A stretch of 64,000 bases of DNA from Candidatus Woesearchaeota archaeon (GTDB lineage: Archaea; Nanobdellota; Nanobdellia; SCGC-AAA011-G17; JACPIM01), in the NCBI GenBank assembly GCA_964457785.1, contig CAYWEX010000001.1, positions 54,477-118,476 on the forward strand, read 5' to 3'. Under the pieces are notes generated by a model. That model saw only the letters and a list, made by a program, of their open reading frames with translations. It was not told the DNA's origin and made no database searches. Of the stretch, positions 20,536 through 38,382 are shown one piece after another. The translations under genes and the position numbers were made by a program. Each line of letters starts with the position of its first letter. Position 1 is the stretch's first letter.

Positions 20536-22326
20536 ATGGGGGAAGATAATGGATTAATGAGAAAACTAAGTGAATGGCCTCAATTAATGCTATATTTGGG
20601 ATTTTTATCTGGGGGATATTTACATTTTGGCAAAGGAATAGGTTTTGGTGGAGAAGTCCAAAGTAGAGATGCTTTTCTTGAGAGAACTGGTTATTCTATG
20701 GCAGCTATGCTTGCAGTTGGATTTTTCTTCACAATGTATGGTTTTTTCTGCACATCAAAAAGATTAAAGGAACCTGTTTTAGAAAATTATCTTAAATACT
20801 TAAGCATGCCGTATGTTGACTTTCCAAAATTATTAGAATTAAACAAAAAAGAAGATGTTGCTGGAAAAATTGATTTATTAGAAGAACAAAAGAAAATATT
20901 CAAGCATGAAGGATTATTGGATTTAAAAATTGGGGGGCTGTATTTTAAATTAGGGGAACTAGAAAGAGGAATTGACAAATTAAGATCTGCTTTTCAAGAT
21001 ATTTCAAGAGATGATTTTGACGGATTTATAGAAATTGAAAAAAAAGTTTATTCTTTATTTACAAAAATTGTTAATCTTGAAAAAATGGAAAGAAATCCAA
21101 AAAATATTGAGAATTATTTTAATTTTATTGCTGCATCTTTGCTCGGCGGTAATTTAGAAGAGGCAGCTGGCTGTTTCCAAAAATTAAGCAACTTAGATTT
21201 AGAGAACAGGCTTGAGTTTAATATTTTATTTTCTTTATTTTTAGATTCTACAGCAGAAAATCCCCTTAATAGGAAAATTCGGGAAAAAGAAGAGTATAAG
21301 AGCAGCGAGCAATGGAAGAAAACAATTAGGCTAATTTTAGGAAATAAAGCTCTTCAATTCCTATCTTTTGGAGTAGATTCAAGAAACAGGATTTTAGAAA
21401 TTGGACCAAATGAATTCTTGAGAAGCACTTTTGCATTTAAAACTGGGAAAAATGAAGAAGAATTAAGTAGGGGCTTTTATGTAAATTTGGGATTAAAAAA
21501 ATTAGGAGAGAAAGTTTTAGGCAAAGGAGAATTAAAACTAATAAGAGGGCTGGATTTTTTTGAAGTTGAAGGAGAATTTTACGATGTCAGCCAGAGAAAA
21601 CCATCAAAAAATTTAGAAGATCTATTTGACGATGTAAAGGTTTCAATAGATAAAGGAAGGTATATTGTTCAAGCTTTAAGAAACCAGAGGAAAATTCACG
21701 AAGTTTCAAGAGAAGGAATTAAGAAAGAGTATTTTACAATTGATGGAATTAAGGTTAAATTAAAAGAATATGATTATAGGGAAACTTTAGAGAGAAGATT
21801 AATAAAAAGATTTGGAGAAAATAGAAAAGGAGAAGAGTTAGTTGAAGCAATAGTTGAAAGTGTTATGCCTTATACTAAAGAATTTAGCTGTTTAATTAAT
21901 GGGGATTTGGCAATTTCTAATATATTTGATGATGGAACTGTATTTGATTTTGAAAGAGCCTGTATTGGAAATCCTGTTATTGATGCTGCAACTACATTAG
22001 AAGATCCTAAAAATGGGAAAATAGGAAGAACTGGAATGTTTAGGGATTTTTATTTGGAAAATGTTGATGGCAGAGAAAGGGAATTTTTAGAAGAAAGCTA
22101 TTTACCTCACAGTGTTTTTATTTCTGCCTGCCAGACAGGAAGCAAATTTGCCCAAGGAATTAAAAAAAGAGAAAACGGAGAAATAGAAAAATCTGAAAAA
22201 GATTTTGAGAGAAGCAATGGGTTTGTAAGACAGGTGCTTGATAAGGGAAATCCAGAAATAAAAGACAGATTTATTGGATATTTAAAAAGTTCTGATCAAG
22301 GAAAAGAATTGATTAAGGCAGTTTAA
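20536..22326 (+). CDS. large protein with C-terminal protein-kinase-like (APH/phosphotransferase-type) domain
   Basis: 'LINGDLAISNIFDDGTVFDFERACIGNPVIDAATTL' resembles the HGDxxxxN...DFE catalytic and Mg-binding loops of the APH/kinase-like fold. N-terminal TM segments. Confidence 0.35.
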   Translation: MGEDNGLMRKLSEWPQLMLYLGFLSGGYLHFGKGIGFGGEVQSRDAFLERTGYSMAAMLAVGFFFTMYGFFCTSKRLKEPVLENYLKYLSMPYVDFPKLLELNKKEDVAGKIDLLEEQKKIFKHEGLLDLKIGGLYFKLGELERGIDKLRSAFQDISRDDFDGFIEIEKKVYSLFTKIVNLEKMERNPKNIENYFNFIAASLLGGNLEEAAGCFQKLSNLDLENRLEFNILFSLFLDSTAENPLNRKIREKEEYKSSEQWKKTIRLILGNKALQFLSFGVDSRNRILEIGPNEFLRSTFAFKTGKNEEELSRGFYVNLGLKKLGEKVLGKGELKLIRGLDFFEVEGEFYDVSQRKPSKNLEDLFDDVKVSIDKGRYIVQALRNQRKIHEVSREGIKKEYFTIDGIKVKLKEYDYRETLERRLIKRFGENRKGEELVEAIVESVMPYTKEFSCLINGDLAISNIFDDGTVFDFERACIGNPVIDAATTLEDPKNGKIGRTGMFRDFYLENVDGREREFLEESYLPHSVFISACQTGSKFAQGIKKRENGEIEKSEKDFERSNGFVRQVLDKGNPEIKDRFIGYLKSSDQGKELIKAV

Positions 22327-23081
22327 CTTTGTACTTTTGGTATCTTAAATTCCAAAACTGGTTGGATTGGATATTCAAAAGAATTTGGGTTATTGTTTAA
22401 ATAAAACTTTTCCTTCCTATAGAAAAATTCAAGCATGTCTGATTTGTCTGATTCCCTGCATTCTAAACCAGCTATCAACTTTTCAGGTTCAGGGCACTTT
22501 TCAAGGATTTTATTATGGTAAACTGCATACAACTCAGAAATCTGGCTTAAATCATAAGTCACTTCCTTAGTAAATTTATGATCTATTACAAATTCTATAT
22601 CACCTTTTGTAAATTTTATATTTGGAGAATGGAATGTAAAGATTAATTTATTTTTTTCCTGAACAAGATCAATTGAATATAGATTTAGATTATTATCTCT
22701 AGCATATTGGTTAAACGAATCCTGTAAATAATTTTTTAAATTATACCTTATTTTTTCTTTAGTTAAAATACAGTCTTCAAATATCTTGTAATCGTTCCAG
22801 AATATACAAACCTTTTCTTTTTTTAATTTTTTGTTATATCCGCTGTTTTTATTTAGTTCAATTATGGAATTATACATGTGATAAGTAGATGACTCTTCAA
22901 TCAGATCTAACTTTAATTTAACTTCTCTGTCAAATTCGATTAAACTTCCAGGATATTTTCCAACATCAGCTTCTATTCCTTTATTTACCAGTACATAAAA
23001 AGCGATTATAGAAAAAACAACTATAACTCCCAAGACAAGCATTGGTTCAAGCACCAGACCTTTTTTATTTATTTTTTGCAA
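22323..23081 (-). CDS. pilin-like protein (class-III-like N-terminus)
   Basis: N-terminus 'MQKINKKGLVLEPMLVLGVIVVFSIIAFYVLV'. Last gene of a tandem pilin array. Confidence 0.45.
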   Translation of the reverse strand: MQKINKKGLVLEPMLVLGVIVVFSIIAFYVLVNKGIEADVGKYPGSLIEFDREVKLKLDLIEESSTYHMYNSIIELNKNSGYNKKLKKEKVCIFWNDYKIFEDCILTKEKIRYNLKNYLQDSFNQYARDNNLNLYSIDLVQEKNKLIFTFHSPNIKFTKGDIEFVIDHKFTKEVTYDLSQISELYAVYHNKILEKCPEPEKLIAGLECRESDKSDMLEFFYRKEKFYLNNNPNSFEYPIQPVLEFKIPKVQS

Positions 23082-23848
23082 ATTAAATAGTCCCCTTTAC
23101 ATTTGATTACTTCTTCTTTTTTATAAAACTTTGAACAACCATCATTTATTGGGCTGCATAATAATTCATCTTCAGTCATAAACCATAAATCTTTAGACGG
23201 TGAGATTAAGCTGTACCATAATTCTTCTGAATTTATGGTTTTTTCAAATAATTCTTTAGAATTAATTATTTTAATATTTTTTAACGGTACAGGAATTTCA
23301 TGGCTTTTTGAAACTGGGGGAGTTAAAAAGCTTAGATCTGAATACGATGCTTTTTGCTTTTTACCAACCCCTACCCCAATACAATTATTTAACTCTGGAT
23401 TTAAGGCAGGAAATTTTTGAATTAATGATGTATCAACATTTCCAGTTTTAATTATTGTAGCTACATCAGCAGTTTCTTTATTTAGTTTTGTACAATCATC
23501 TATTTTTTGCTTTCCACAGAATATTGATACTGAAGAAGGTTTTGGAGCCAAGGAAATAACTGCCCTTTCAAGGTATTCCAGCAGATTTTTATTAGTTGTA
23601 TTACAATAAAGAGAACTTAACTGCTTTATTGTTGTTTCTTTTTCTTCAGTTCTAAATTTTACATTTAACAAATAATCTGTAAACTCATGCACTTCAGTAT
23701 TTGCTTCGCTTAGACTAATAGAAAATTCCTCGTTTGCTGAAAACTGGAGATAAAAGAAAAAAACGCCAAAAATAATTACTATCATTACCAAGGCATAAAT
23801 AGACGTTGAAAAAGTCAGGAAATCTCCAATTATAGCTTTTTTATTCAA
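23069..23848 (-). CDS. pilin-like protein
   Basis: 'MNKKAIIGDFLTFSTSIYALVMIVIIFGVFFFYL'. Confidence 0.45.
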   Translation of the reverse strand: MNKKAIIGDFLTFSTSIYALVMIVIIFGVFFFYLQFSANEEFSISLSEANTEVHEFTDYLLNVKFRTEEKETTIKQLSSLYCNTTNKNLLEYLERAVISLAPKPSSVSIFCGKQKIDDCTKLNKETADVATIIKTGNVDTSLIQKFPALNPELNNCIGVGVGKKQKASYSDLSFLTPPVSKSHEIPVPLKNIKIINSKELFEKTINSEELWYSLISPSKDLWFMTEDELLCSPINDGCSKFYKKEEVIKCKGDYLICKK

Positions 23849-24275
23849 GATTAATCACCATCTCTACCTGAATTTCCTGAAATTCATTATTTATTTTTAT
23901 TAAAAAATTATCTTTAGGACAAATATAATCATTGCTTAACCTGCAAAACTGTTCATCAAAATTATTTTCATTAATAAAAAATTTATCTGAATTAGAAGTT
24001 ATTTTTATACCAATATTATTTCTGTTAAAACAAGAACTTAATTTTTCCTTTACCAGACCCTCTTTTTCCAAACAAATTTTCAATTCTGCAAGAGCAATAC
24101 TTTTTTCCTGCAATTTAACTTTTCTTAAAGCCAATTCCTGATTTTGAGAAAAACATCCAGTTGGAAGCGCTATAAGAAAAGCAACAAAAACAATTAAAAA
24201 TAAGCGGGGTATTGAAAACATTCCCTGAGATATATCATCAAAAACAGTGCCTTTTTTATCAAGCAATTTTTTCAT
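23841..24275 (-). CDS. pilin-like protein
   Basis: 'MKKLLDKKGTVFDDISQGMFSIPRLFLIVFVAFLIAL'. Confidence 0.4.
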   Translation of the reverse strand: MKKLLDKKGTVFDDISQGMFSIPRLFLIVFVAFLIALPTGCFSQNQELALRKVKLQEKSIALAELKICLEKEGLVKEKLSSCFNRNNIGIKITSNSDKFFINENNFDEQFCRLSNDYICPKDNFLIKINNEFQEIQVEMVINLE

Positions 24276-24627
24276 TTTTTTCTAGAATTAATGTCTCCTT
24301 TTGTCTTTTAAATTTTAAAGAAATATCATGATTTTTTCTATATGGGACTTTTATCTCAGCTTTACCATCATTGATTAAAACAAAATTTTCATTTAAATCA
24401 AATTTAAAATTTTCCGGAAGATGATAAGAAATCTTTATATTTTCTTCAGGCAAAAACTGCATTACTTCTAAAGTATTTGCAATATCTTCACCAAAGATCC
24501 GAGCTTTTAGTGTTGTATCGTTTAATTTAGAGACAACAAAATAAATTGATATGCCAATAATGAATAAACCGAATAAGATAAAACCAACCTCATTCATCAA
24601 TCTCCTTGAATCGCCTCTTTTATTCAT
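24259..24627 (-). CDS. pilin-like protein
   Basis: 'MNKRGDSRRLMNEVGFILFGLFIIGISIYFVV'. Confidence 0.45.
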   Translation of the reverse strand: MNKRGDSRRLMNEVGFILFGLFIIGISIYFVVSKLNDTTLKARIFGEDIANTLEVMQFLPEENIKISYHLPENFKFDLNENFVLINDGKAEIKVPYRKNHDISLKFKRQKETLILEKNEKIA

Positions 24628-24673
24628 TAAAAAAATTAAGGGTTACAAATTTATAAAGTTAAGTAAAGAATTA

Positions 24674-25363
24674 TTAGCTTACATGTGGCGATATAACTAT
24701 AAGTTCAGTTATATAATCTTTTTTTAACAGCTCTAATTTGAGATTATAAGAATTAGGATTCTCTTTTAACAAGCTATCTTTATTATCTAAGGCAAAAAAG
24801 AATTCAGTTGTATAAACTGGTAATGGTACTGAACTTGAAACGTATATTGAGCCAGCTATATCGTTAAAATTATCCAAATTAGTACAATCTATTGTTTTTT
24901 CTTCACATTTAGTGCTTACTATCTTTACTTCACCAGCTTCTTTTGTTTCTGATTCTGATAATTTGCATTTACAAATACATACTGAATCTGTTTGGCATTC
25001 CTTTGGCCGAATAATCGCATTAAAATTTATATCTTTGTTAGAAATTGGCTCTTTATAAGAAATTAATTTATTATTATCATCAAAATAAAAATCATGTGAA
25101 TCGCTGATACTAAATAAAACTTCCTGATTATTTAAATTTAATTTTACTTTTTTATATTGACTATCTTCTAATTCTTCAATAATTTTCTTAAATCCGTCAA
25201 AATCAACAGTTAAAATTTCTTCTTGAGTAAAAGCTGGCGCTATAGCATTATATAATTTATATCCTGAAAAACCCAATAAAAGTATTAAAGGAATAGCTAA
25301 AATAATAGCTCCTAAACTAGAGGGTAGAATAGCTGTTGATTCTTCTTCACCTTTTTTATTCAT
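24674..25363 (-). CDS. pilin-like protein
   Basis: 'MNKKGEEESTAILPSSLGAIILAIPLILLLGF'. Cys-rich extracellular part. Confidence 0.45.
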   Translation of the reverse strand: MNKKGEEESTAILPSSLGAIILAIPLILLLGFSGYKLYNAIAPAFTQEEILTVDFDGFKKIIEELEDSQYKKVKLNLNNQEVLFSISDSHDFYFDDNNKLISYKEPISNKDINFNAIIRPKECQTDSVCICKCKLSESETKEAGEVKIVSTKCEEKTIDCTNLDNFNDIAGSIYVSSSVPLPVYTTEFFFALDNKDSLLKENPNSYNLKLELLKKDYITELIVISPHVS

Positions 25364-25399
25364 GAATAATAAGAAAATAAAAAGGATATATAAGGTTTA

Positions 25400-25825
25400 T
25401 TAATCACAGATTGAACCGGGACCATCTAATTGACATCCTACGCCTAAGCTTTGCTCTTCTGCCAATACTGTTGTTCTATAACAATAATATTTCACAAAAG
25501 GCTTGCCTTTGTCTTCATCATTTCCACCAACCCTGTCTGCAAAACCATTACCATCATTATCTATGTTGAATGATGCTTTACAAAAAGCAGAATTTCTTCT
25601 TAATGGATCTGATAATAATTTAGCCTGCTCACATCTTTGATCACAAGTCTGAACTGCTATTGTTAAATCAGTACCAGAAGCTATTGGGAAGAATACTCTT
25701 GAAATTACTTCAGTAATTCTTCCAAAACCACCTAAAAAGAATGTTGTTACAACAATTAAGACAAGAACAACTAGAACTGCAATGATAATAGTATTTATTG
25801 TTAAATCAACACCTTTTTTATTCAT
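25400..25825 (-). CDS. pilin-like protein
   Basis: 'MNKKGVDLTINTIIIAVLVVLVLIVV'. Cys-rich C-terminal domain. Confidence 0.5.
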   Translation of the reverse strand: MNKKGVDLTINTIIIAVLVVLVLIVVTTFFLGGFGRITEVISRVFFPIASGTDLTIAVQTCDQRCEQAKLLSDPLRRNSAFCKASFNIDNDGNGFADRVGGNDEDKGKPFVKYYCYRTTVLAEEQSLGVGCQLDGPGSICD

Positions 25826-25879
25826 TTACATAACCTCTTTATTGTTTTAAGATAATTGATTGATATTTAAAGGTTTTTA

Positions 25880-26482
25880 TTAACTGCAGGAAATTGCAGT
25901 AATTTTGACTTTTGGTTCTTTTTGTTCTGGCTTGAATTTACATTCTTTATTGGAATTGAAACCACATGGATTAGATTCACAAAGAGATTTATCAGTTTTA
26001 TAAATTTCGGAGCTTTCTTTATATTCTTCTTGAAAAGCTGATAAAAAAACTAATTTATCCTCTTTTAGTTCGCCACGATTAAAACTAGTAAACACTTGAT
26101 TATAACCTTTACATAAACCATAATAATTCTTAAAATATTCTTCATTTTCACAGGAAAAACAATCTACTTTGCCTTCTGCTCGGCCCCAAAAACATTTAGT
26201 AATACTTGTTTTTTGATTTTTAGCATCTAAACCCATACAAGCTTGGTAAGAATTGTATTTTCTACAGGCTTTATCTTCTTCATTTCCCCCACCAATATTT
26301 AGAGAGGGTTTTATATCTTCTATTTTTATGAGATTTTTTGCTTGGGAAAATTTAGAATCTTTGCCAGTAGCTAAATCAGAGGAACTTGAAGAAAGGAAAT
26401 AGATTATTAAACCAGTGGCTACTACTGCTAAAACCAATATAGGTACTGTGTCTATAGTTAAATACGAACCTCTTTTATTCAT
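25880..26482 (-). CDS. pilin-like protein
   Basis: 'MNKRGSYLTIDTVPILVLAVVATGLIIYF'. Cys-rich. Confidence 0.5.
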   Translation of the reverse strand: MNKRGSYLTIDTVPILVLAVVATGLIIYFLSSSSSDLATGKDSKFSQAKNLIKIEDIKPSLNIGGGNEEDKACRKYNSYQACMGLDAKNQKTSITKCFWGRAEGKVDCFSCENEEYFKNYYGLCKGYNQVFTSFNRGELKEDKLVFLSAFQEEYKESSEIYKTDKSLCESNPCGFNSNKECKFKPEQKEPKVKITAISCS

Positions 26483-26503
26483 TTTATTTTTTAATTTATT
26501 TGA

Positions 26504-26653
26504 TTATTTAAATATTGCTTTAGCAAAATCAAAAAAAGATTTTAATACTTCTTCCAAATTACTTTTAAAAGCAAAATAAATTAATATTAAAGCAAATAAA
26601 GCAATAATTAAAGCTACAACTTTTTCAATTGAAATTTCGGCTTTTTTGTTCAT
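26504..26653 (-). CDS. mini pilin-like protein (49 aa, not in ORF track)
   Basis: 'MNKKAEISIEKVVALIIALFALILIYFAFKSNLEEVLKSFFDFAKAIFK'. ATGA overlap with the upstream gene. Confidence 0.4.
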   Translation of the reverse strand: MNKKAEISIEKVVALIIALFALILIYFAFKSNLEEVLKSFFDFAKAIFK

Positions 26654-26808
26654 TTTAATCTCAATATACTACTTAAATCTATTTCTTCAAATAAAAATTT
26701 CTTGATCATAGCTATCATTAAAAAGATAAGCACAGCTATCATTAACCACTTTAAAAGATCTAAAATAGTCCAATCAATTTCTGAAGATGCTTTTTTATTT
26801 AGTTTCAT
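26650..26808 (-). CDS. mini pilin-like protein (52 aa, not in ORF track)
   Basis: 'MKLNKKASSEIDWTILDLLKWLMIAVLIFLMIAMIKK...'. ATGA overlaps on both sides. Confidence 0.4.
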   Translation of the reverse strand: MKLNKKASSEIDWTILDLLKWLMIAVLIFLMIAMIKKFLFEEIDLSSILRLK

Positions 26809-27524: not shown

Positions 27525-27631
27525 TTATAAACAACCCCGAATATTTTTTGACCAATTTTAATAAGTAAGAATAAAAATAAGATAACTAATAAAATTTCAA
27601 TAATTGTTTTTAGATCTGCTTTTTTGTTCAT
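27521..27631 (-). CDS. mini pilin-like protein (36 aa, not in ORF track)
   Basis: 'MNKKADLKTIIEILLVILFLFLLIKIGQKIFGVVYK'. The start overlaps the stop of the 917-aa gene (taATG). Confidence 0.35.
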   Translation of the reverse strand: MNKKADLKTIIEILLVILFLFLLIKIGQKIFGVVYK

Positions 27632-30386: not shown

Positions 30387-32474
30387 TTAAAGCAGTTTTG
30401 TTCTTAATTCTAAGAGAGATTTTTTTCTTAATGGCAGGGTTGTATTTGTCAGCTCCATTAATTTTACTATGGCTTCATTTAGAGAATCTTTATCATTTTT
30501 GGATATTTTATTTGATAGTTCAAGAAATGTTTCTTTTAAATCTGCATTTGACTGGTGTTTCTTTGCATTTATGAGATTATTAATCAACAATTTTATGTAA
30601 GCGTTATGAGATAAATTCAAAGAGATAATCTTGTTATTTACATCTTCAAGCATTAATTTTCTTTCAATTTCCAAGTTAAAGACTTTTTCAAGCTTGTTTA
30701 AAGATCTTCTCGAGCTTAAATTAAACAAAAATCTTGTTCCAAAAGAAAAAAACTGTGAGTAAGTGTTAAAAACCAGATTCCTCAAAAATACTCTTTGTTT
30801 TTCTGTAATTAAAAGATCTTTTTCTATATATGAAATGAGGATTGTTAATAAAGAAAAGGTATTTGAAATGCTCTGCAAGGAAAATTCTATATTTCTTGCA
30901 AATTTTGAGTTTCTGTAATATTTGTTGTATTCATCTGTTGATTTTTCCAGAACATTTGACAAGTAAGCAACAGAATAATTTTCAAAATTGGAGATCACTT
31001 GATTTAGGTTATTTAAGAAGATTTTTGACATATCTTCATGTATTGTTCTCCTGTTTGAAAGCGTGTTTATATAACTGTTTAATTGGTTTAAATAAGAATT
31101 TATTCTTAATCCAAACATAGTGTATTTGGAAAAATTTTTGTACTGCTCCAAATTCTTTTCAAACATCACTTGCAATTCCTCCAGAGTATAGTTTTCAAGA
31201 GAGGAGTTTACATTCTTCAATAAGTTATATGAGTCCTTAGCTATTGCATCTCTCTTTACTTTGGATTTTTTTTCTTCATCAAATTTATTTATGTTATTTT
31301 CCAGATCATCCAACAATGACTTAACAAGCATACTATAATCTGTGTTTAAAATGAATTTTTCATAAACAGCAAAATTATTTGTAAATATATCTTTTAATTC
31401 CTCTGAATCATAAACATCAACATTATTTAGGACTTCTGTCAAAATATTTACTGTTTGCTCTGCCATTAACTGCTGCTTTTTTCTTATTTTATTTTTGTTT
31501 GTTCTTAATCTAAATACTGGGCTGGGCTTAAAAGATTTTAAAACATCAAAGAAACTTACAGAAATCTGCCTTATAGGAAGCTCTATTTTTACTGACTTTT
31601 CTTTTTCAAGAGAAGCTAATTTTTCAAGATAAGCAATGTAACGAGAATTAACTTCGCTATACGAAGAATCAAGATTTTTTAAGAAAGATTCTTTCTCAGA
31701 TTCAGATAATCTTGTGCTGATTATTTCTTTTGTTTCAATGTATTTTTCCTTTATTTCAAATAATCTGTTGTTTATTTCCAGAATTTGGTGCTCTGTTTTG
31801 TTTTTTAAATTTATTAATGAATTTAATGATTCTGCGCCAGATTTAAATGAATTAAGCGATGAATTTGCCAGATTTAGATTATTTTCTTTATTTTGTTTTA
31901 TTTCGTGTTCTTCATATTCTGACTGAATATTTTTATAAAAAGAAATTAATTTGTTTTTGAGATCTATAAACTTGAATTTATAATCTTTGTCAGATTTTTT
32001 TACTATTTCCCTTATTTCATCATTAAACAAAAGAATAAAATTTTCTATTTCATCTTCAGTCAATGTTTTAACTGATTCTTTAAAATTATTCAATCTTTTT
32101 CTTAAGTCATCATATATTGACTCAAAATTTAGCTTCGGCTCTTCTTTTTTTTCTTCTTTTTTAGATATTGGCTCGTCTGTATAAAGATTTATATGGGCTT
32201 TAAAGTAATTATAATATTTGCTTAAATTTTGGGATAATTCAACTGCCTTTTCACCATAAATAGAATTTCTTCCATGCTTGTTTATGAATTCAATTAATCT
32301 TAAATCCAAAATATCATAATCTTTTAAAATTAGATTTTTGCTTGAAGATTTTTGCAATAAAGAAACAAAATTATCCAGGTTTTGGGATATTTCCATAAAT
32401 TCATTTTCAGGAGCATTTTCCTTTAATTGTAAAGGTTCTTTTTGTTTTTTGAAATTAAATAAATTTCTTAGCAT
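30387..32474 (-). CDS. large coiled-coil protein of the pilus locus
   Basis: 695 aa, predominantly K/E/N/L heptad-like sequence. Translationally coupled to its neighbours. Confidence 0.45.
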   Translation of the reverse strand: MLRNLFNFKKQKEPLQLKENAPENEFMEISQNLDNFVSLLQKSSSKNLILKDYDILDLRLIEFINKHGRNSIYGEKAVELSQNLSKYYNYFKAHINLYTDEPISKKEEKKEEPKLNFESIYDDLRKRLNNFKESVKTLTEDEIENFILLFNDEIREIVKKSDKDYKFKFIDLKNKLISFYKNIQSEYEEHEIKQNKENNLNLANSSLNSFKSGAESLNSLINLKNKTEHQILEINNRLFEIKEKYIETKEIISTRLSESEKESFLKNLDSSYSEVNSRYIAYLEKLASLEKEKSVKIELPIRQISVSFFDVLKSFKPSPVFRLRTNKNKIRKKQQLMAEQTVNILTEVLNNVDVYDSEELKDIFTNNFAVYEKFILNTDYSMLVKSLLDDLENNINKFDEEKKSKVKRDAIAKDSYNLLKNVNSSLENYTLEELQVMFEKNLEQYKNFSKYTMFGLRINSYLNQLNSYINTLSNRRTIHEDMSKIFLNNLNQVISNFENYSVAYLSNVLEKSTDEYNKYYRNSKFARNIEFSLQSISNTFSLLTILISYIEKDLLITEKQRVFLRNLVFNTYSQFFSFGTRFLFNLSSRRSLNKLEKVFNLEIERKLMLEDVNNKIISLNLSHNAYIKLLINNLINAKKHQSNADLKETFLELSNKISKNDKDSLNEAIVKLMELTNTTLPLRKKSLLELRTKLL

Positions 32475-33106
32475 TATGAACTCCTAGCTGGGGTTGCTGC
32501 AAACAAACCAATTATTCCAATAATTATTGCAACCCAAAACAACAAGTAAAGCAGCTGAAACAAACCACCAAAATAATCAACTACATTTGACAACAAATTG
32601 TGGCCGAAAATCATCAAACCAGCAAAACAAATTACATAAGCCCATGCAACTGATGCTACCCAGCCAACACCTAATTTTTTTAAAAATTCAAATATTACAA
32701 AAAAAAGCAACAATAGAAATATTAACAGGGCAATTGGGCCGAATGATAAAAGTGTTACTCCATTATATCTTTCCCAAGAAACTAAAGCAAATGACAAGGC
32801 CAAAGAAATTCCTATTGACAATGGCTTTGCCTGAGAACTTAAATGACTTCCCTGAAATACAGCCTGGGTTAAGCCTAGAAATATTAAAAGGAACAGGAAA
32901 AAGTCTATCCAGCCAGAATAGATTTCATAAATATATAAAACATCATCCAACCCTCCAGCTGATAAAAATCCATAATCAAAACTTTGGTCATAATAGTATT
33001 GGGCACTAGCTAAATTTAACAGTAAAATAAGGAAAATACTAATTAACACCACTTTTTTTAACATTGAATAATTGAATATAAGATTGTATTTAAGGTTTTC
33101 TCTCAC
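32474..33106 (-). CDS. membrane protein paralogous to N-domain of 27631..30384
   Basis: 'NLASAQYYYDQSFDYGFL...IYSGWIDFFLFLLIFLGL' parallels 'NAQFYYDESFGFSSL...NAQWLDFFITFALMIGIL'. Confidence 0.45.
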   Translation of the reverse strand: MRENLKYNLIFNYSMLKKVVLISIFLILLLNLASAQYYYDQSFDYGFLSAGGLDDVLYIYEIYSGWIDFFLFLLIFLGLTQAVFQGSHLSSQAKPLSIGISLALSFALVSWERYNGVTLLSFGPIALLIFLLLLFFVIFEFLKKLGVGWVASVAWAYVICFAGLMIFGHNLLSNVVDYFGGLFQLLYLLFWVAIIIGIIGLFAATPARSS

Positions 33107-33313
33107 AAAACTAGTTTATAGGGGTTATAAACAGAATAAAAATATTTCCTTTAATCTTTGGCTTCTAATTTTTCTTTTTCCCAGACTTTTAAAAGTTTGT
33201 GAATTTCGTTTGTTATTTCCTGCATAAATAATAGAATATCTTTTTTAATCATTCAAACATTAATTTGTTAAGCATAATAAAGTTTAAATAGATTATTATT
33301 TGTAAAATAATCA

Positions 33314-33745
33314 ATGGCAGAGGTGTTGATTTTACCAGCAGTTTACATGGGTTTGGTTTTAGGATTATATGAATTTTTTGCAATTCACAAAGACTTGGCT
33401 TTTAGAGGAAGCCATTTTTTAAAACATTTCTGGCATTCATTATTAACTACTATGTTTTTTATTTTTGTATTAATGAATATTTCTTTTGTTTTTGAAGCTG
33501 TTCCGAGCTTAAACACAGTTCCTTTTTTAGGAAATGAAATTGTTGTAAGGGTAATTATTGGATTAGTAACAATAGCAAAAGTTCATGGAGCTGGTGTTGT
33601 TGCAAGAGGAGCTGGAGGAATGGGAAGCATTGGAGAAACTTGGGCTCATGCTTTGATTATTACAGCTTTAATTCAGGCAGCCCCATTTGCATGGCCATTA
33701 GTACAAGGATTACTACAACAATATTTACCTTTCTTGCCTATTTAA
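33314..33745 (+). CDS. small polytopic membrane protein
   Basis: 143 aa, 4 hydrophobic segments. Only plus-strand gene inside the pilus locus. Confidence 0.35.
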   Translation: MAEVLILPAVYMGLVLGLYEFFAIHKDLAFRGSHFLKHFWHSLLTTMFFIFVLMNISFVFEAVPSLNTVPFLGNEIVVRVIIGLVTIAKVHGAGVVARGAGGMGSIGETWAHALIITALIQAAPFAWPLVQGLLQQYLPFLPI

Positions 33746-33943
33746 ATTTTGTAAAATAATTTGTATCCTGACAAAAACTTAATTAAAATCTACCTCTCTT
33801 GTCTTAAATTTTTTCCTTTCTTCTTCTAATGTTTTTTTTATATTTTCGACTTCTTCTTCTGAACCAACCCATTTACCTAAAAAATATGATAATGGTTTCT
33901 TTTTTGTTTTATTTACTAATTTTATAGGTTTCATTGATCTGGA

Positions 33944-36133
33944 TTAAGCATTTATATTTGAAATTCCGCTTGCCAATAAGCTAAATACCAAAATTCCGAT
34001 TGTTGATATTATTACATAAAGCAAAGTTGAGATTAAAATATTTTTTCCAATAAGATTTTTTTCAGACAGTCTGTCTATGCCTTTTTCAATTCCGCTTGCC
34101 AATATTGTTAAAATGATTCCTATTTCAATAACATATAAACCAATAACCAGCTGCAAATAAAATCCAGGGATAACATCCTTGATATTAATTATGTTTGGCA
34201 ATGCATTAATTCCAACTGCTGATTCTGGAGCCAGAGTTGTTGCTTTTGCAAATTCTTCACCTAACTTGTTAATAACAGTTGTAATCATTGAACCAACTGC
34301 AATTACAATGCCAGCTATCATAGGAGTTAAAAAGGCAACCTGTGATTTCATTGAAGAAATTATGTCTGCCAACAAGTCCTTTAATCTTTCATCAACAACA
34401 TGTATTTTCTTTATATAATTTGAAATTGTCAACAAGGATTTTGAAACTGTCATGGGAGATTTTTTTGCAGCCTGTATCAAGACTTTCATTGAAGTTTCAA
34501 TTAAAGAACTTGGATAATAATTTAGGGCGCCTCTTTCCTTGTCAAAAACAGCCTCTTTAACATTCATACCAAGCCTTCTTATATTATAATCTATAATCCT
34601 GAATAAATTTCCAGTTGGAGTGTTTTTCATATTTTCTGCTACCTGACTAAAAGCAATTTCAACAGGAATTCCGTCTCCCACTCTGTTTCCTAACTGGAAC
34701 AAGGCTGCTGTAAATTCTTTTTCAAGATCCAAAGTTTCTTTTCTAACTTTTATTATGTCTTTAGTTGTCATATAATAATACAAACCAATAGATATTGCAA
34801 TTCCAAATGGAATTAAAAGGCTAATTAACATTGAAAAAGTACTGTAAGGACCAATGCATTTATTATCTTCACACTTATAATCGAGTAATTTGACACCAAA
34901 AAATTCTGCCTGATTTAAAGAAGGGTCAGCTAAATGCAAAATAATTGGAGTAAATCCAATTAAAACAAAAAAAGAACCTAATAATATTGACAAGGTTTTT
35001 ACACTGAATTTCTGCCCTAAAAATTCTGTTTTTTGAAATTTTTCTGATGATAATTGTTTTGAAAAAAATTCTGCTTCAGAATAACCAGTTGGTCTTTTTG
35101 CCAACAAACTATTTCCTATTGTTATAATTAGAATTGGCAGAAAAACATTGTAAACAAAAGCAAGATGATACCATTTTACCAAGCCGCCAATAAAACTTCC
35201 CATTAATGGAAAAATTACCAAACCCAGAATTGGAAGTATTACACCAAGCATATGAAGCATAGTAATTGGGGTTTTTAGATCCTGGGCATAATGGAGCATT
35301 CTTTCATAAACTGATGTTAGAATTGTTTCCAAAGATTTTTCCAATAATTTTACTCTTCTTATTTCATCAGGCTCGTACAAAGAACCCTGAATTAAATGAA
35401 AGGATTCTATAAACTCAAGATTATACTGCCTCCAATATTTTAAATATTCATCCAAGCTGTCTTTTATTGTAACAAATTTTCCAGTTTCCACATCCCATAA
35501 AATTTTTCTTAAATCCAAAGATAAAGGAGGGGCTAAATGTTCGCCAGCAAATTTAACTGCATTTTCCAAATTAGATGTATGACGCATGTAAGTTACAATA
35601 TAAAGAATACAAAGAACCATCTGGTTGCTTGCTTTTAGCCTGTAATCATTTGCCAACTTTAAAGGATATTTGCTCAGTGGCATTATAGAAAACAAACCAA
35701 GAGCTAAGAGGGATAGTGGAATGAACAAAGGAATTTCTTTTATCAACACAGTTATTTTTACTCCTTCTAAAAAAAATAAAGTCGCTAAAGGAACTACTAA
35801 AGTTAAAAGACCGCACAACATAATAGAAATACCAACTAAAGCAGCGAAGCTCATTGCTCCCTCTGGCGTTATATCAAGCTGCAATCTTTCAATAGATTCT
35901 GTTATTTTCGGAACATCTTTTTTGTTTGGGGAAATTTTTATTATTTTCTCAGCAGAATTACATAATTGCTCATAACGCGAGAGATTTTTCTCAAGGTTTT
36001 CTTTTCTGAATATTTTATACTCTATAGAAAAAGAATCATTTGGAAAATTTTCTTCATCACTAAATTTTATTTGTTTTGAAATAGCTTCTCTATATTTTGC
36101 CAATATTTCTTCTGTGCTTTCTTGTGATTTCAT
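33944..36133 (-). CDS. FlaJ/TadC/PilC-like polytopic membrane platform protein
   Basis: 729 aa with ~9 TM segments and cytoplasmic helical domains. ATGA-coupled immediately downstream of the secretion ATPase, the canonical ATPase-platform pair. Confidence 0.45.
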   Translation of the reverse strand: MKSQESTEEILAKYREAISKQIKFSDEENFPNDSFSIEYKIFRKENLEKNLSRYEQLCNSAEKIIKISPNKKDVPKITESIERLQLDITPEGAMSFAALVGISIMLCGLLTLVVPLATLFFLEGVKITVLIKEIPLFIPLSLLALGLFSIMPLSKYPLKLANDYRLKASNQMVLCILYIVTYMRHTSNLENAVKFAGEHLAPPLSLDLRKILWDVETGKFVTIKDSLDEYLKYWRQYNLEFIESFHLIQGSLYEPDEIRRVKLLEKSLETILTSVYERMLHYAQDLKTPITMLHMLGVILPILGLVIFPLMGSFIGGLVKWYHLAFVYNVFLPILIITIGNSLLAKRPTGYSEAEFFSKQLSSEKFQKTEFLGQKFSVKTLSILLGSFFVLIGFTPIILHLADPSLNQAEFFGVKLLDYKCEDNKCIGPYSTFSMLISLLIPFGIAISIGLYYYMTTKDIIKVRKETLDLEKEFTAALFQLGNRVGDGIPVEIAFSQVAENMKNTPTGNLFRIIDYNIRRLGMNVKEAVFDKERGALNYYPSSLIETSMKVLIQAAKKSPMTVSKSLLTISNYIKKIHVVDERLKDLLADIISSMKSQVAFLTPMIAGIVIAVGSMITTVINKLGEEFAKATTLAPESAVGINALPNIINIKDVIPGFYLQLVIGLYVIEIGIILTILASGIEKGIDRLSEKNLIGKNILISTLLYVIISTIGILVFSLLASGISNINA

Positions 36134-38382
36134 TTTGTTTCTCTTTTTAACCAGTCTTCCCAGGCAGAATATATTTTTTGATTATCTAAAACACCAGTTT
36201 CTTCTTTTACTTGTTCTATTATTTTATGGAAAGCATCATTTGATCTTGCTATGAAATTAGCTTCTAATATTTGGGGCTTGTTTAATTTAAGAGAAAAATC
36301 CACCAAAGCCTGATTAATTTTAGATCTTAACATAACTGCATCCCAAAGAGAATTCCAGTCAGAAGACCATTCTTTTGTATTTGCAGCTATTGATTTAAGA
36401 ACTTCAGAATCTCCATTGATTAAATCCTCTGTTGGCTCCAACTGATCTGTCTGAGGATTATATTTCATTAAATCTACAAAACCTTTTTCAGCCAAGGGAT
36501 CTTTTTCCCAGTGCTTTCTAACTTCTGTTATTGACAAGACCCTTCTAAATTTATGGAGGCCATCTGGACTTCGGATTGGATTTGAAATTACGATTATGTC
36601 AGCTGCTTTGAAAGAAGTTTTTGGAACTTTAAGATCATTTACAACTCTGTCAAAAACACCATAAGGAGAATCTCCATGTATTGTTCCTGCAACAACATTT
36701 GCAGCAGCTCCGATTCTCATAGACTCAAAAAGACTTATAGCTTCTGCAGATCTAATTTCGCCGACAATTATAGCTGAATCTCCTAATCTTAATGAAGTTC
36801 TAATTCCTTCATCTGCTGGAACTTCTGTTGATGAATGTGATAAAGCTGAACGAACTTTCATTGATTGAATATTGTAACCTATTTGTCTCATTGCTTCTGT
36901 ATTAATTTCTTCTGTATCTTCAATTACAAGAATTCTATTTTTTTTCATGATTTCAAATAATGATGCGCCCAAAATCGAGGTTTTACCCGAACTACGAGTG
37001 CCTGCAAAAATTATGGCTTTGGAATTTTCAAAGAAAAAACTTAATAACGCAGCACCCATAGAATTAATCATTTTATTTTTCATGAATAATGGCAGAGTCC
37101 ATGGATTGTCTCTGTGTCTTCTAAAAGCATAAGCTAGTCCAAGCCTGCTTAAAGGTTCTGAAATAACAGCAACTCTTGATCTTGCGCCTGGAATTGATAA
37201 TTCAGTATCTAAAATTGGATTTGCCTGATCTAAAGGCCTGCCAGACAATAACCTGAACTTTGTTGCCCAGCTTTCTGCATCTTCTGAACTTGGAATAATA
37301 TTTGTTACACAATCACCAAAATCTTCATGAACTAAGAAAATTGGAGTTTGTCCTATTGGACTATTAACTGATATATCTTGAATTTTTGGATCTTGCAACA
37401 ATAATTCAACAGCACCGAAACCTATAGTGTATCTTACAAGAATTTTTGCTAATTCATTTATTTCTTCCAGCGGCATTTCGAAATTTTTGTTATTAATTAA
37501 ATCTATCAATAAATCACGGCCAATGTTAAAGAATGTTCTTCTTAATTTTTGAGGTTCGAGAAATTCTTCATCTTTTGGCTTGTGCTCTGAAAGGACTTTT
37601 CTTGCAACATTTAATATTTCATACTGGTCTTCTGTTAATTTTAATTCAGGAGGAATTAGCCTATAAAAGTTTTTTACATCTTCCTTTATTTTGTAAATAA
37701 AGATATCTGAATTTTTATTGGAATAAGCATCCAATTGTTTTGCTTGTTCTGGAATTTTAACAGAGATTTTTGTGAAAAGAAAAATTGGAGTTATATTTGG
37801 CCTGAAAAACTGCTTATATAATTCTCTTGATCCAACTACATATCCATTTAACTGGTTTTCAAAAATCCTGAGCAGCTTTGTTTTCCCAAGAACTCTTGTA
37901 ATATATTCCAGCTTTTCAAAATAATCCTGCTCTTCAACAAGCTTGTCCTGATCTTTTTCTTTTGAAATAAAAATCCTGCTTTCCCTAGCCAATCTTTTAG
38001 ATTCAACATAAGCACCAAGAGGATCTGTTTTTAACAATGTAAAAATCAGATATTGCAAAGACAAAGCCTTGTTTCTAAAACTTTCAGAGGAAACATCAGT
38101 TGTCTTTAATGCTAAAATCCTTTTTTGTTTTGTCATATGTTTGTATAAATTAGCAAGTTCAATCATGGCCTGAGTTTGTTCATAATCATATTCATAATTT
38201 CTTTTTTGAATCAAAATTATTCTTGCAGAAGAAGGAAACTCAACTAATCTTTCAATTATTTTTGACATTACAACAGGATTTTCTTCAATTGAAGGAGAGT
38301 ATGGCCATTTTGAAGCATCAATTTTAAGAACCTCTTCCTGACCTTCTCTTATAATTTCATATTCTTTTATAATAGCAGCCAT
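36130..38382 (-). CDS. Type II/IV secretion-system ATPase (FlaI/PilB/TadA/VirB11 family) with long N-terminal domain
   Basis: Walker A 'FAGTRSSGKTSILGA', Asp box 'LVIEDTEEI', 'IVGEIRSAEA', and His box 'AGTIHGDSP'. Confidence 0.75.
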   Translation of the reverse strand: MAAIIKEYEIIREGQEEVLKIDASKWPYSPSIEENPVVMSKIIERLVEFPSSARIILIQKRNYEYDYEQTQAMIELANLYKHMTKQKRILALKTTDVSSESFRNKALSLQYLIFTLLKTDPLGAYVESKRLARESRIFISKEKDQDKLVEEQDYFEKLEYITRVLGKTKLLRIFENQLNGYVVGSRELYKQFFRPNITPIFLFTKISVKIPEQAKQLDAYSNKNSDIFIYKIKEDVKNFYRLIPPELKLTEDQYEILNVARKVLSEHKPKDEEFLEPQKLRRTFFNIGRDLLIDLINNKNFEMPLEEINELAKILVRYTIGFGAVELLLQDPKIQDISVNSPIGQTPIFLVHEDFGDCVTNIIPSSEDAESWATKFRLLSGRPLDQANPILDTELSIPGARSRVAVISEPLSRLGLAYAFRRHRDNPWTLPLFMKNKMINSMGAALLSFFFENSKAIIFAGTRSSGKTSILGASLFEIMKKNRILVIEDTEEINTEAMRQIGYNIQSMKVRSALSHSSTEVPADEGIRTSLRLGDSAIIVGEIRSAEAISLFESMRIGAAANVVAGTIHGDSPYGVFDRVVNDLKVPKTSFKAADIIVISNPIRSPDGLHKFRRVLSITEVRKHWEKDPLAEKGFVDLMKYNPQTDQLEPTEDLINGDSEVLKSIAANTKEWSSDWNSLWDAVMLRSKINQALVDFSLKLNKPQILEANFIARSNDAFHKIIEQVKEETGVLDNQKIYSAWEDWLKRETK

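What the first reader, a model, noticed from the sequence alone, without database searches (positions are those of the whole stretch)
22323..38382. Large type-IV-pilus-like locus: secretion ATPase, FlaJ/TadC-like platform, two giant coiled-coil proteins and 11 tandem pilin-like genes
A minus-strand operon runs from 38382 to 22323. It contains a FlaI/PilB-family ATPase (Walker A AGTRSSGKTS, VGEIR, His box) ATGA-coupled to a 729-aa polytopic platform protein. Next come a 210-aa membrane protein whose domain recurs as the N-terminus of a 917-aa protein (membrane domain, Gly/Ser linker, ~650 aa coiled coil), and a 695-aa coiled-coil protein. The operon ends with 11 tightly packed genes, three of them 36-52 aa and missed by the ORF track. 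All 11 begin 'MNK[KR][GA]', then a short polar stretch, then one hydrophobic helix, and many have Cys-rich C-terminal domains. This N-terminal pattern resembles archaeal class III (prepilin) signal peptides, though the polar spacer before the hydrophobic segment is longer than in textbook pilins. No FlaH/FlaG/FlaF archaellum genes were seen, so an adhesion pilus is more likely than an archaellum. The two giant coiled-coil proteins are unexplained accessory components and may be new. In small-genome archaea such filaments are candidates for host or partner attachment.
Basis: partly seen in the sequence, partly recalled or inferred. Interest (0 to 1): 0.65.

Follow-up and report, generated by a model that had tools for sequence, protein, structure and literature searches.

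The report
Woesearchaeal type IV pilus-like locus
This is a real copy of the type-IV-pilus-like filament gene cluster found in essentially all Woesearchaeota (tiny DPANN archaea); the cluster itself is expected, and the unexplained part is two large lineage-specific proteins inserted in it.

Summary
The window comes from a ~29% GC Woesearchaeota/Nanoarchaeia (DPANN) archaeon.

**Core machine**
- It comprises a FlaI/PilB/TadA-type ATPase, ATGA-coupled to a very divergent GspF/TadC-like platform. Pfam does not recognise the platform; only the fold does.
- Eleven consecutive genes carry class III (prepilin-type) signal peptides.
- An A24 prepilin peptidase lies 12 kb away (10030-10947), outside the finding.
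- No archaellum-specific genes are present.

**Conservation**
- Platform relatives occur in at least 584 species-level genomes.
- The pilin gene order is kept in 23 of 24 informative loci.

**Corrections**
- This is not one operon. A conserved opposite-strand gene (33314-33745) splits it into two units.
- The "giant coiled coils" are not canonical coiled coils. The 695-aa protein has three ~72-aa tandem repeats and only 11 homologues among 1.84 billion representatives.
- The ~700-aa tail of the 917-aa protein matches nothing, not even orthologues in genomes whose platform is 82-84% identical.
- Conserved neighbours were missed: two true coiled-coil proteins and three paralogous membrane proteins upstream of the ATPase.

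**Verdict**
Woesearchaeal flaI/flaJ/flaK genes are already in the literature. This is a variant of a known kind, with one unexplained lineage-specific module.

The parts
36130..38382 (-). Secretion/assembly ATPase, 750 aa, of the FlaI/PilB/TadA type. It has about 220 extra N-terminal residues.
   Evidence: Pfam T2SSE 55 bits, above its cutoff. NCBIfam FlaI 141 bits, TadA 109, VirB11 60, all below equivalog cutoffs. Best PDB matches are 2oap (archaeal GspE), CpaF and FlaI. 83-87% identical in close relatives and 55% in L014.
33944..36133 (-). Polytopic platform protein, 729 aa. A divergent GspF/TadC/FlaJ-like protein, ATGA-coupled to the ATPase.
   Evidence: No Pfam, NCBIfam or PDB sequence hit. 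3 of 20 homologues give weak T2SSF hits. AF2 pLDDT 78. Foldseek: EpsF/OutF/PilC cytoplasmic domains at probability 1.0 (PilC 0.99), target-normalised TM 0.66-0.73. More than 3281 homologues at about 50% identity. At least 584 species genomes.
33779..33934 (-). 51-aa ORF, 9 nt after the platform gene. Role unknown.
   Evidence: Conserved only in L004 and L006 at 62-64%. Called as a gene on the Logan contig.
33314..33745 (+). 143-aa four-helix membrane protein on the opposite strand. It splits the locus into two transcription units.
   Evidence: 79-93% identical in L003, L086, L087, L004 and L006. Lies next to long m210-domain proteins in L021, L022 and L024. No family hit.
32474..33106 (-). m210: Sec-type signal peptide plus a 5-TM membrane domain (likely start M15, coordinate 33064). 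First gene of the pilin operon.
   Evidence: Homologous to the N-terminus of the 917-aa protein. A family member lies within 1.6 kb downstream of the platform in 17 of 65 loci. 60-72% identical in close relatives.
30387..32474 (-). cc695: 695-aa protein with no signal peptide and no Cys, with three ~72-aa tandem repeats (aa 326-396, 400-470, 480-551).
   Evidence: Only 11 homologues, all at least 45% identical, among 1.84e9 representatives. Repeats shown. Short heptad segments only. Overlaps m210 by 1 nt.
27631..30384 (-). cc917: m210-type membrane domain (aa 1-200), a Gly/Ser linker, then a ~700-aa K/E/L-rich tail unique to this lineage.
   Evidence: N-domain 34-45% identical to orthologues. 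Tail has no hit by blastp or tblastn. The relatives' tails are related to one another. Heptad test negative. Database search found only itself.
27521..27631 (-). pil1: 36-aa Flp-like pilin candidate (MNKKA|DLKTIIEILLVILFLFLL).
   Evidence: Class III motif. A 31-43 aa equivalent occupies the same position in many loci. 48-65% identical in close relatives.
26805..27524 (-). pil2: 239-aa pilin-like protein, 6 Cys.
   Evidence: Class III motif. Family found downstream in 26 of 36 loci with enough sequence.
26650..26808 (-). pil3: 52-aa Flp-like pilin candidate.
   Evidence: Class III motif. 49-53% identical in close relatives.
26504..26653 (-). pil4: 49-aa Flp-like pilin candidate.
   Evidence: Class III motif. 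Family found in 44 loci. Pfam Flp1_like 13 bits, below the 33.5 cutoff.
25880..26482 (-). pil5: 200-aa pilin-like protein, 10 Cys.
   Evidence: Class III motif. 27-32% identical in close relatives.
25400..25825 (-). pil6: 141-aa pilin with the best conservation and 6 conserved Cys. Candidate major subunit.
   Evidence: 67-68% identical in close relatives, 40% in L014. In the 29-sequence alignment, conservation starts at [KR]G and leader length varies. AF2 gives helix 10-45 plus a small head, pLDDT 78. No PDB fold match.
24674..25363 (-). pil7: 229-aa pilin-like protein, 6 Cys.
   Evidence: Class III motif with a longer polar spacer. 29-34% identical in close relatives.
24259..24627 (-). pil8: 122-aa pilin-like protein.
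   Evidence: Class III motif. Family found in 27 loci, in conserved order.
23841..24275 (-). pil9: 144-aa pilin-like protein, 5 Cys.
   Evidence: Class III motif. Family found in 26 loci.
23069..23848 (-). pil10: 259-aa pilin-like protein, 8 Cys, TTG start.
   Evidence: Class III motif. 27% identical in L086, L087 and L088.
22323..23081 (-). pil11: 252-aa pilin-like protein. Last gene of the array.
   Evidence: Class III motif. Family found in 26 loci, normally followed by the RPA gene.
38451..39480 (+). c130 (38451-38843) and c215 (38833-39480): two true coiled-coil proteins transcribed divergently from the ATPase. Outside the finding.
   Evidence: Continuous heptad pattern at aa 9-85 and aa 122-193. 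Present and divergent from the ATPase in 48 of 55 eligible loci. Only generic coiled-coil hits.
39485..41174 (-). Three paralogous 175-193 aa membrane proteins (mX). Conserved neighbours; membership in the machine is unproven.
   Evidence: Paralogy at E 1e-13, hhalign probability 98.9%. All three present in 42 of 49 eligible loci. No family hit. Relation to m210 not established, probability at most 57%.
10030..10947 (+). Class III signal (prepilin) peptidase of family A24, 305 aa.
   Evidence: Pfam Peptidase_A24 57.8 bits against a 26.5 cutoff. NCBIfam FlaK 54.9 bits, below the equivalog cutoff. Both Asp motifs present: TDLRTREVPD and WGGGDAKL.

Best explanation
The region encodes the type IV filament (pilus-like) machine that is standard in Woesearchaeota/Nanoarchaeia.

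Proposed mechanism (inferred from established knowledge of type IV filament systems):
- A hexameric FlaI/PilB/TadA-type ATPase docks on a single, very divergent GspF/TadC-like platform.
- The A24 peptidase at 10030-10947 cuts after the conserved [KR][GA] of eleven class III signal peptide proteins.
- The machine lifts the processed proteins out of the membrane and polymerises them through their N-terminal hydrophobic helices into a surface filament.

Proposed roles of the eleven proteins (inferred):
- The three tiny proteins (31-45 aa once processed) resemble Flp-type pilins.
- pil6 (141 aa) has a long N-terminal helix and a small six-Cys head, and it is the best conserved. Either pil6 or the tiny proteins could be the main subunit.
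- The larger, Cys-rich, fast-evolving proteins are candidate minor or tip pilins and adhesins.
- Lacking ArlH, ArlF/G and archaellins, the filament is most likely non-rotary. It would serve adhesion or partner contact, possibly uptake.

Proposed role of the lineage-specific proteins (weakest inference): in this genus-level clade the pilin operon is headed by m210, cc695 and cc917. By the positive-inside rule, the long tail of cc917 lies in the cytoplasm. cc695 has no signal peptide. I infer that they form a membrane-tethered cytoplasmic scaffold or regulator at the machine.

Shown here: gene content, motifs, folds, conservation and synteny. Not shown: cleavage, filament formation, function, and the role of the accessory proteins.
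For: - ATPase family and motifs.
- Platform fold, weak T2SSF hits in homologues, and one homologue named TadB by JGI.
- Eleven clustered class III motifs against 0.25 expected per shuffled window.
- Variable leader with conservation starting at [KR]G.
- pil6 model with a 36-residue N-terminal helix.
- A24 peptidase with both catalytic motifs.
- ATPase adjacent to platform in 63 of 69 loci. Pilin families present in 24-26 of 36 loci. Order kept in 23 of 24.
- Tight coupling from m210 to pil11.
- Literature: flaI/J/K in Woesearchaeota, read as motility and/or adhesion (PMC5994134). High expression of 'archaellin type IV' genes in situ (PMC11606122). DPANN pilin islands made of unannotated genes (PMC6393860).
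Against: - The platform fails Pfam T2SSF and every sequence search. No internal duplication is detectable.
- None of the 11 proteins matches a curated pilin or archaellin model.
- The pil6 head has no PDB fold match.
- Several candidates have 8-15 polar residues before the hydrophobic helix, longer than textbook pilins.
- cc695 and cc917 are absent from most Woesearchaeota loci, so they cannot be core parts.
- The cytoplasmic topology of the tail is judged by eye only.
- No experimental data exist for this organism.
Confidence: 0.85

Rival explanations
1. The machine is a type IV filament system but makes no long adhesive pilus. Instead it builds a short pseudopilus for secretion, substrate capture (bindosome-like) or DNA/nutrient uptake, which a metabolically dependent DPANN cell would need.
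For: - Eleven different pilin-like proteins in a fixed order resemble pseudopilus or minor-pilin sets more than a simple fibre.
- The platform is about 50% identical across at least 584 species. The ATPase and platform are more conserved than RPA between the window and L014 (55% and 52% against 41%). That suggests a near-essential function.
- Archaeal type IV filament machines carrying substrate-binding proteins have been proposed (bioRxiv 10.64898/2026.04.22.720090).
Against: - No substrate-binding-protein domain and no ComEC-like gene was seen among the locus proteins that were scanned.
- BasE scores only 59 bits.
- Nothing in the sequence separates short filaments from long ones.
Confidence: 0.25
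2. m143, m210, cc695 and cc917 are an unrelated lineage-specific module, for example a membrane-tethered cytoskeletal or envelope element. It was inserted between the platform and pilin genes and does not work with the pilus.
For: - They are absent from most Woesearchaeota loci, including the complete genomes AR20 (L041) and CP066683 (L014).
- cc695 has only 11 homologues.
- In L004 and L006, unrelated genes separate the platform from m210.
- The whole neighbourhood from the SerRS/TraB side of the cluster to RPA/RadA is syntenic anyway, so adjacency is weak evidence.
Against: - The m210-cc695-cc917-pil1-pil2-pil3-pil4 junctions are -4 to +2 nt, which implies co-transcription and translational coupling with the pilins.
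- Short m210-family genes sit directly after the platform in 17 of 65 loci from many lineages.
- Long m210-domain proteins recur at the same position in L009, L021 and L024.
Confidence: 0.35
3. The locus is an archaellum (motility) operon, as KEGG-style flaI/flaJ/flaK labels in published Woesearchaeota genomes suggest.
For: - The best NCBIfam hit of the ATPase is FlaI, and the peptidase's best NCBIfam hit is FlaK.
- Papers list fla genes in Woesearchaeota (PMC5994134, PMC11606122).
Against: - FlaI scores 141 bits against a 550 cutoff. FlaK scores 55 against 330.
- No archaellin domain and no FlaF/G, FlaH or FlaC/D/E/X hit was found in any locus protein.
- The subunits are 36-259 aa proteins unlike archaellins.
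Confidence: 0.03
4. The 11 'pilins' are ordinary signal-anchored or Sec-secreted membrane proteins that merely share an N-terminal motif.
For: - No curated pilin family matches.
- Some have long polar spacers.
- The pil6 head has no pilin-like PDB match.
Against: - The [KR][KR][GA]-plus-hydrophobic-helix motif occurs 11 times in a row next to a pilus ATPase and platform.
- Leader length varies while conservation begins at the putative cut site.
- An A24 peptidase is present.
- The array and its order are conserved across the order.
Confidence: 0.05

Closest known systems
Archaeal adhesion-type type IV pili (Sulfolobus Aap, Methanococcus Epd, Haloferax PilA/PilB3C3; clades of Makarova, Koonin and Albers 2016, PMC4858521)
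   Same: - FlaI/PilB-family ATPase next to a polytopic platform.
- Several class III signal peptide subunits.
- PibD/FlaK-type A24 peptidase.
- No retraction ATPase and no archaellum accessory genes.
   Different: - A single 729-aa platform that Pfam T2SSF does not recognise.
- An ATPase with about 220 extra N-terminal residues.
- A fixed array of 11 pilin-like genes with Cys-rich heads that match no arCOG- or Pfam-type pilin model available here.
- No hit to any Pfam or NCBIfam family of AapX-, UpsX- or EpdJ/K-type accessory proteins.
- Its own conserved partners (c130, c215, three mX proteins).
Bacterial Tad/Flp pilus (CpaF/TadA, TadB/TadC, Flp)
   Same: - The ATPase aligns well with CpaF/TadA (71 bits to PDB CpaF, 109 bits to TIGR03819).
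- Three subunits of 36-52 aa are as small as Flp pilins.
- One platform homologue is named TadB by JGI.
   Different: - One fused platform gene instead of TadB plus TadC.
- No TadZ, secretin or TadE/F found.
- The Flp1_like Pfam score is below its cutoff.
- Archaeal cell envelope.
Archaellum (ArlB, ArlF/G, ArlH, ArlI, ArlJ, ArlX or ArlCDE)
   Same: - Same ATPase and platform superfamilies.
- Same type of signal peptidase.
- In crenarchaeal systems ArlX is a membrane-anchored protein with a cytoplasmic helical domain that scaffolds the motor. It is a functional analogue for what cc917 might do.
   Different: - No archaellin, ArlF/G, ArlH, ArlCDE or ArlX match.
- The FlaI equivalog score is not reached.
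- The comparison of cc917 with ArlX is an analogy only; no similarity was tested or found.
Minor-pilin / pseudopilin sets of bacterial type II secretion and type IVa pili (GspH-K; FimU-PilVWXE)
   Same: Multiple distinct pilin-like proteins encoded in a conserved order beside one probable major subunit.
   Different: - No sequence or fold relationship was detected.
- Eleven members rather than four or five.
- Archaeal class III leaders.
Type IV pili of episymbiotic Saccharibacteria (PMC9894109, PMC11623550)
   Same: Ecological parallel: ultrasmall, host-dependent cells in which type IV pili mediate host binding.
   Different: - A bacterial type IVa machine with PilT and other parts.
- Not homologous in detail.
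- No Woesearchaeota culture exists to test the parallel.

Membership tests
Type IV filament superfamily (archaeal type IV pilus) | PilB/GspE/FlaI-family ATPase with Walker A, Asp box, Walker B and His box | tested here: met
   Pfam T2SSE 55.2 bits against a 24.9 cutoff. Motifs read in the translation. PDB matches 2oap, CpaF and FlaI at E 1e-24 to 1e-16.
Type IV filament superfamily (archaeal type IV pilus) | Platform protein carrying the T2SSF (GspF/PilC/TadC/FlaJ) sequence signature | tested here: not met
   No Pfam, NCBIfam or PDB sequence hit for the window protein or its 20-sequence profile. Only 3 of 20 homologues give sub-threshold T2SSF hits, best E 0.009. No internal repeat by hhalign.
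Type IV filament superfamily (archaeal type IV pilus) | Platform protein with the GspF-type cytoplasmic helical-bundle fold, polytopic, encoded next to the ATPase | tested here: met
   AF2 model pLDDT 78. The only high-probability Foldseek matches are EpsF, OutF and PilC cytoplasmic domains (probability 0.99-1.0, target-normalised TM 0.66-0.73, rmsd about 3 A), though E-values are 0.3-2. ATGA overlap with the ATPase. Adjacent in 63 of 69 loci.
Type IV filament superfamily (archaeal type IV pilus) | Subunits with class III signal peptides (short basic leader, G/A at -1, then about 20 hydrophobic residues) | tested here: met
   Eleven contiguous ORFs carry the motif; shuffles give 0.25 per window. 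In the pil6 family the leader is 5-12 residues and conservation starts at [KR]G.
Type IV filament superfamily (archaeal type IV pilus) | Actual cleavage of the leader and assembly into a filament | not testable with these tools
   Needs proteomics, a cleavage assay, or EM.
Type IV filament superfamily (archaeal type IV pilus) | Class III signal peptidase (family A24) in the genome | tested here: met
   Window 10030-10947: Peptidase_A24 57.8 bits against a 26.5 cutoff. Both Asp motifs present.
Type IV filament superfamily (archaeal type IV pilus) | Pilin fold: long N-terminal alpha-helix carrying a globular head similar to known pilins | tested here: inconclusive
   The pil6 AF2 model has helix 10-45 plus a small Cys-rich alpha/beta head, pLDDT 78. 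Foldseek against the PDB found no match at E up to 10.
Archaellum | ArlI (FlaI) equivalog-level ATPase | tested here: not met
   NF058587 scores 140.8 bits against a 550 cutoff.
Archaellum | Archaellin-domain subunits, ArlF/ArlG, ArlH (KaiC-like), and ArlCDE or ArlX in the locus | tested here: not met
   No such Pfam or NCBIfam hit on any protein of 22323-41174. The rest of the genome was not available.
Tad/Flp pilus | TadA/CpaF equivalog, separate TadB and TadC, TadZ, Flp-family pilin | tested here: not met
   TIGR03819 scores 108.8 bits against a 373 cutoff. There is one fused platform gene. Flp1_like scores 13 bits against 33.5 on pil4. No TadZ-like hit.
VirB11/TrbB-type type IV secretion ATPase | Best similarity to VirB11/TrbB, and a conjugation/T4SS gene context | tested here: not met
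   VirB11 scores 59.8 and TrbB 66.4 bits, well below FlaI (140.8) and TadA (108.8). No T4SS genes in the neighbourhood.
   Crude heptad scan. cc917 tail: 1.2% of windows against 0.6% shuffled. cc695: 8% of windows, in six segments of 30-44 aa. Positive controls c130 and c215: 34% and 20%, continuous. No dedicated predictor or structure model was run.
ArlX-like membrane-anchored cytoplasmic scaffold (analogy for cc917) | Membrane anchor plus cytoplasmic helical domain that binds the ATPase | not tested
   Topology inferred by eye from the positive-inside rule. No sequence comparison with ArlX and no interaction prediction was run.

The most novel reading that the evidence does not exclude
The Woesearchaeota machine may be a distinct subtype of archaeal type IV filament. 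Its conserved set would be larger than currently recognised:
- a non-canonical single platform;
- a fixed 11-pilin array;
- a divergently transcribed pair of coiled-coil proteins (c130, c215);
- three paralogous membrane proteins.

In the window's clade it would also have gained a membrane-anchored protein (cc917) with an exchangeable tail. That tail was swapped or remade while the core stayed 82-87% identical. Together with the repeat protein cc695, it would tune the machine, for example in partner specificity or positioning.
Probability: 0.25. Interest if true: 0.6.

Novelty: new variant of a known kind. Interest (0 to 1): 0.4.

Why it matters
Woesearchaeota are among the most widespread uncultured DPANN archaea and are thought to depend on partner cells. 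How they attach to or exchange material with partners is unknown.

This locus is their one near-universal surface-filament machine. Platform relatives occur in at least 584 species genomes. The ATPase and platform are better conserved than the replication protein RPA. Related genes are reported as highly expressed in situ (PMC11606122). The locus is therefore the obvious candidate for that contact function.

The analysis yields a concrete parts list for experiments:
- the peptidase;
- a likely major pilin;
- fast-evolving Cys-rich candidate adhesins.

It also flags conserved partners that current annotation calls hypothetical.

The lineage-specific proteins matter less in general. They do show how accessory modules with exchangeable tails are grafted onto such machines. 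None of this changes the accepted picture of type IV filaments.

Tried and rejected
- **Word-indexed homology search with the 917-aa protein.** It returned only the query. This is partly an artefact, because orthologues of the N-terminal domain exist.
- **m210 domain homologous to the three upstream membrane paralogues?** Iterated HMMs merged the two families. hhalign gave at most 57% probability. I treat this as compositional drift and make no claim.
- **Internal duplication of the platform.** Not detectable by hhalign.
- **cc695 and the cc917 tail as paralogues.** Smith-Waterman z of 1.4-3.9. The cc695 repeat HMM found nothing in cc917 or in any other locus. Rejected.
- **Frameshifted remnant of the relatives' tail in the window.** tblastn in all six frames was negative.
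- **c130 and c215 as known families.** Only generic coiled-coil matches in the PDB and Pfam.
- **Pfam on the long m210-domain proteins of other lineages.** Nothing informative.
- **Bacterial promoter/terminator scan.** At chance level and not applicable to archaea.
- **Structure prediction of cc695 and cc917.** Not done.

Full report
**Source organism**

The window is archaeal and about 29% GC. It encodes:
- RadA with an intein, RPA, Orc1/Cdc6 and LonB;
- an intron-containing tRNA.

Homologues of the locus proteins come almost only from genomes labelled Woesearchaeota, Nanoarchaeota or Nanoarchaeia.

**Checking the observation**

All listed minus-strand ORFs exist.
- The ATPase has GTRSSGKTS, IIVGEIR and AGTIHGD. 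It overlaps the 729-aa ORF by ATGA.
- The 210-aa protein and the N-terminus of the 917-aa protein are homologous (31% identity, E 7e-10).
- Eleven consecutive ORFs in 22323-27631 have [KR][KR][GA] followed by a hydrophobic helix. The whole window has 13 such ORFs, and shuffled windows give 0.25.
- Junctions from the 210-aa gene to the last pilin gene are -17 to +54 nt.

Two points fail.
- A 672-nt gap holds a plus-strand 143-aa membrane-protein gene (33314-33745). It is 79-93% identical in relatives. There are thus two transcription units, not one operon.
- A crude heptad scan does not support a long coiled coil in the 917-aa protein. It finds only short segments in the 695-aa protein. It clearly detects coiled coils in two neighbouring proteins that serve as positive controls.

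**Core machine**

*ATPase.* It passes Pfam T2SSE. Its NCBIfam scores are 141 bits on FlaI, 109 on TadA and about 60 on VirB11/TrbB. Its best solved relatives are the Archaeoglobus GspE, CpaF and FlaI. It belongs to the archaeal FlaI/PilB/TadA branch. It is not an archaellum equivalog and not VirB11-like.

*Platform.* The 729-aa protein has no sequence match in Pfam, NCBIfam or the PDB, even as a 20-sequence profile. Only 3 of 20 homologues give sub-threshold T2SSF hits. An AlphaFold2 model (pLDDT 78) gives specific Foldseek matches only to the cytoplasmic domains of EpsF, OutF and PilC (probability 0.99-1.0, target-normalised TM 0.66-0.73). JGI names one homologue TadB. I accept it as a very divergent GspF/TadC/FlaJ-type platform on fold and context, not on sequence.

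*Peptidase.* An A24 prepilin peptidase with both catalytic Asp motifs lies at 10030-10947.

**The pilin-like genes**

- None of the eleven matches a curated pilin or archaellin model.
- In a 29-sequence alignment of the best-conserved one (pil6, 25400-25825), the basic leader varies from 5 to 12 residues. Conservation begins exactly at [KR]G. Six Cys are conserved.
- Its model has a 36-residue N-terminal helix and a small head. The head has no PDB fold match.
- Three members are 36-52 aa, about the size of Flp pilins.
- Seven of the eleven have 4-10 Cys.

**Conservation across Woesearchaeota**

The platform alignment found relatives in at least 584 GTDB species genomes. These include the complete genomes AR20 (CP010426) and CP066683. 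In 82 loci:
- the ATPase directly precedes the platform in 63 of 69 informative cases;
- six pilin families lie downstream in 24-26 of 36;
- their order is kept in 23 of 24.

The usual array ends at the RPA gene. In the window clade an APH-like kinase gene is inserted before RPA.

Upstream of the ATPase, outside the finding, two features recur:
- two divergently transcribed coiled-coil proteins (38451-39480) in 48 of 55 loci;
- three paralogous membrane proteins (39485-41174) in 42 of 49.

Because the whole neighbourhood is syntenic, this adjacency suggests machine membership but does not prove it.

**The two large proteins**

They are lineage-specific.
- cc695 has 11 homologues among 1.84 billion representatives, all at least 45% identical. 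It carries three ~72-aa tandem repeats.
- cc917 consists of an m210-type membrane domain, a Gly/Ser linker and a ~700-aa tail.
- In four relatives whose platform is 82-84% identical and cc695 64-69% identical, the cc917 membrane domain is 34-45% identical. The tail shows no similarity at all by blastp or by tblastn in any frame.
- The relatives' tails are related to one another (60% identity between L003 and L086).

The tail was therefore replaced, or diverged beyond recognition, in the window lineage.

Short m210-family genes follow the platform in 17 of 65 loci. Long versions occur in L009, L021 and L024. The positive-inside rule, applied by eye, puts the tail in the cytoplasm. cc695 has no signal peptide. 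A scaffold or regulatory role is my inference, and I hold it with modest confidence.

**Comparison with what is known**

- Archaeal type IV pilus diversity and its rapidly evolving pilins are well described (PMC4858521).
- DPANN islands of unannotated pilin genes next to the ATPase and TadC have been noted (PMC6393860).
- flaI/flaJ/flaK in Woesearchaeota have been reported and read as motility and/or adhesion (PMC5994134).
- High in-situ expression of 'archaellin type IV' genes has been reported (PMC11606122).
- A 2026 preprint reclassifies archaeal type IV filament systems and stresses variable ATPase N-domains and accessory genes (10.64898/2026.04.22.720090).

I found no description of the specific Woesearchaeota architecture or of the m210/cc695/cc917 module. 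The literature search was limited to the held library.

**Verdict**

This is a real, well-conserved type IV filament locus. The main novelty lies in details:
- the unrecognisable platform;
- the fixed 11-pilin array;
- the conserved unannotated partners;
- a lineage-specific module with an exchangeable tail.

Interest is moderate (0.4).

Noticed in passing
window 10030-10947 (+): A24 prepilin (class III signal) peptidase with both catalytic Asp motifs. It lies 12 kb from the pilus locus and was not mentioned in the finding.
   Followed up: yes
window 3702-8335 (-): A second cluster of probable surface proteins next to the peptidase. The 393-aa protein (7154-8335) starts with a class III-like MIKGKRGAVESE plus a hydrophobic helix. 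The two 316-aa proteins (4709-5659, 3702-4652) have lipobox-like ISGC/IVGC N-termini. None has a Pfam hit.
   Followed up: partly
window 38451-41174: A conserved block upstream of the ATPase. It holds two divergently transcribed true coiled-coil proteins (130 and 215 aa) and three paralogous 175-193 aa membrane proteins. They are present in 48 of 55 and 42 of 49 Woesearchaeota loci, and no known family matches.
   Followed up: partly
window 33314-33745 (+): A 143-aa membrane protein on the opposite strand inside the locus, 79-93% identical in close relatives. In other lineages it sits next to long m210-domain proteins. Function unknown.
   Followed up: partly
loci L006, L033, L038, L043, L047, L051, L056, L065, L082 (ATPase ORFs): Orthologues of the pilus ATPase are 1259-1979 aa in these genomes instead of about 760 aa. 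They probably carry one or more inteins; this was not examined.
   Followed up: no
window 13017-15641 (-): RadA recombinase interrupted by an intein with a LAGLIDADG homing endonuclease domain (874 aa).
   Followed up: no
window 48266-48388 (+): A 123-nt tRNA gene found by Rfam (51 bits) but missed by ARAGORN, consistent with an archaeal intron.
   Followed up: no
window 20536-22326 (+): A 596-aa APH-family kinase-like gene convergent with the pilin operon. It is inserted between the last pilin gene and RPA only in the window's close clade (L086, L087). Other Woesearchaeota have RPA directly after the pilins.
   Followed up: partly
window 33779-33934 (-): A 51-aa ORF 9 nt downstream of the platform gene. 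It is conserved only in L004 and L006 and has a charged C-terminal half. Role unknown.
   Followed up: no
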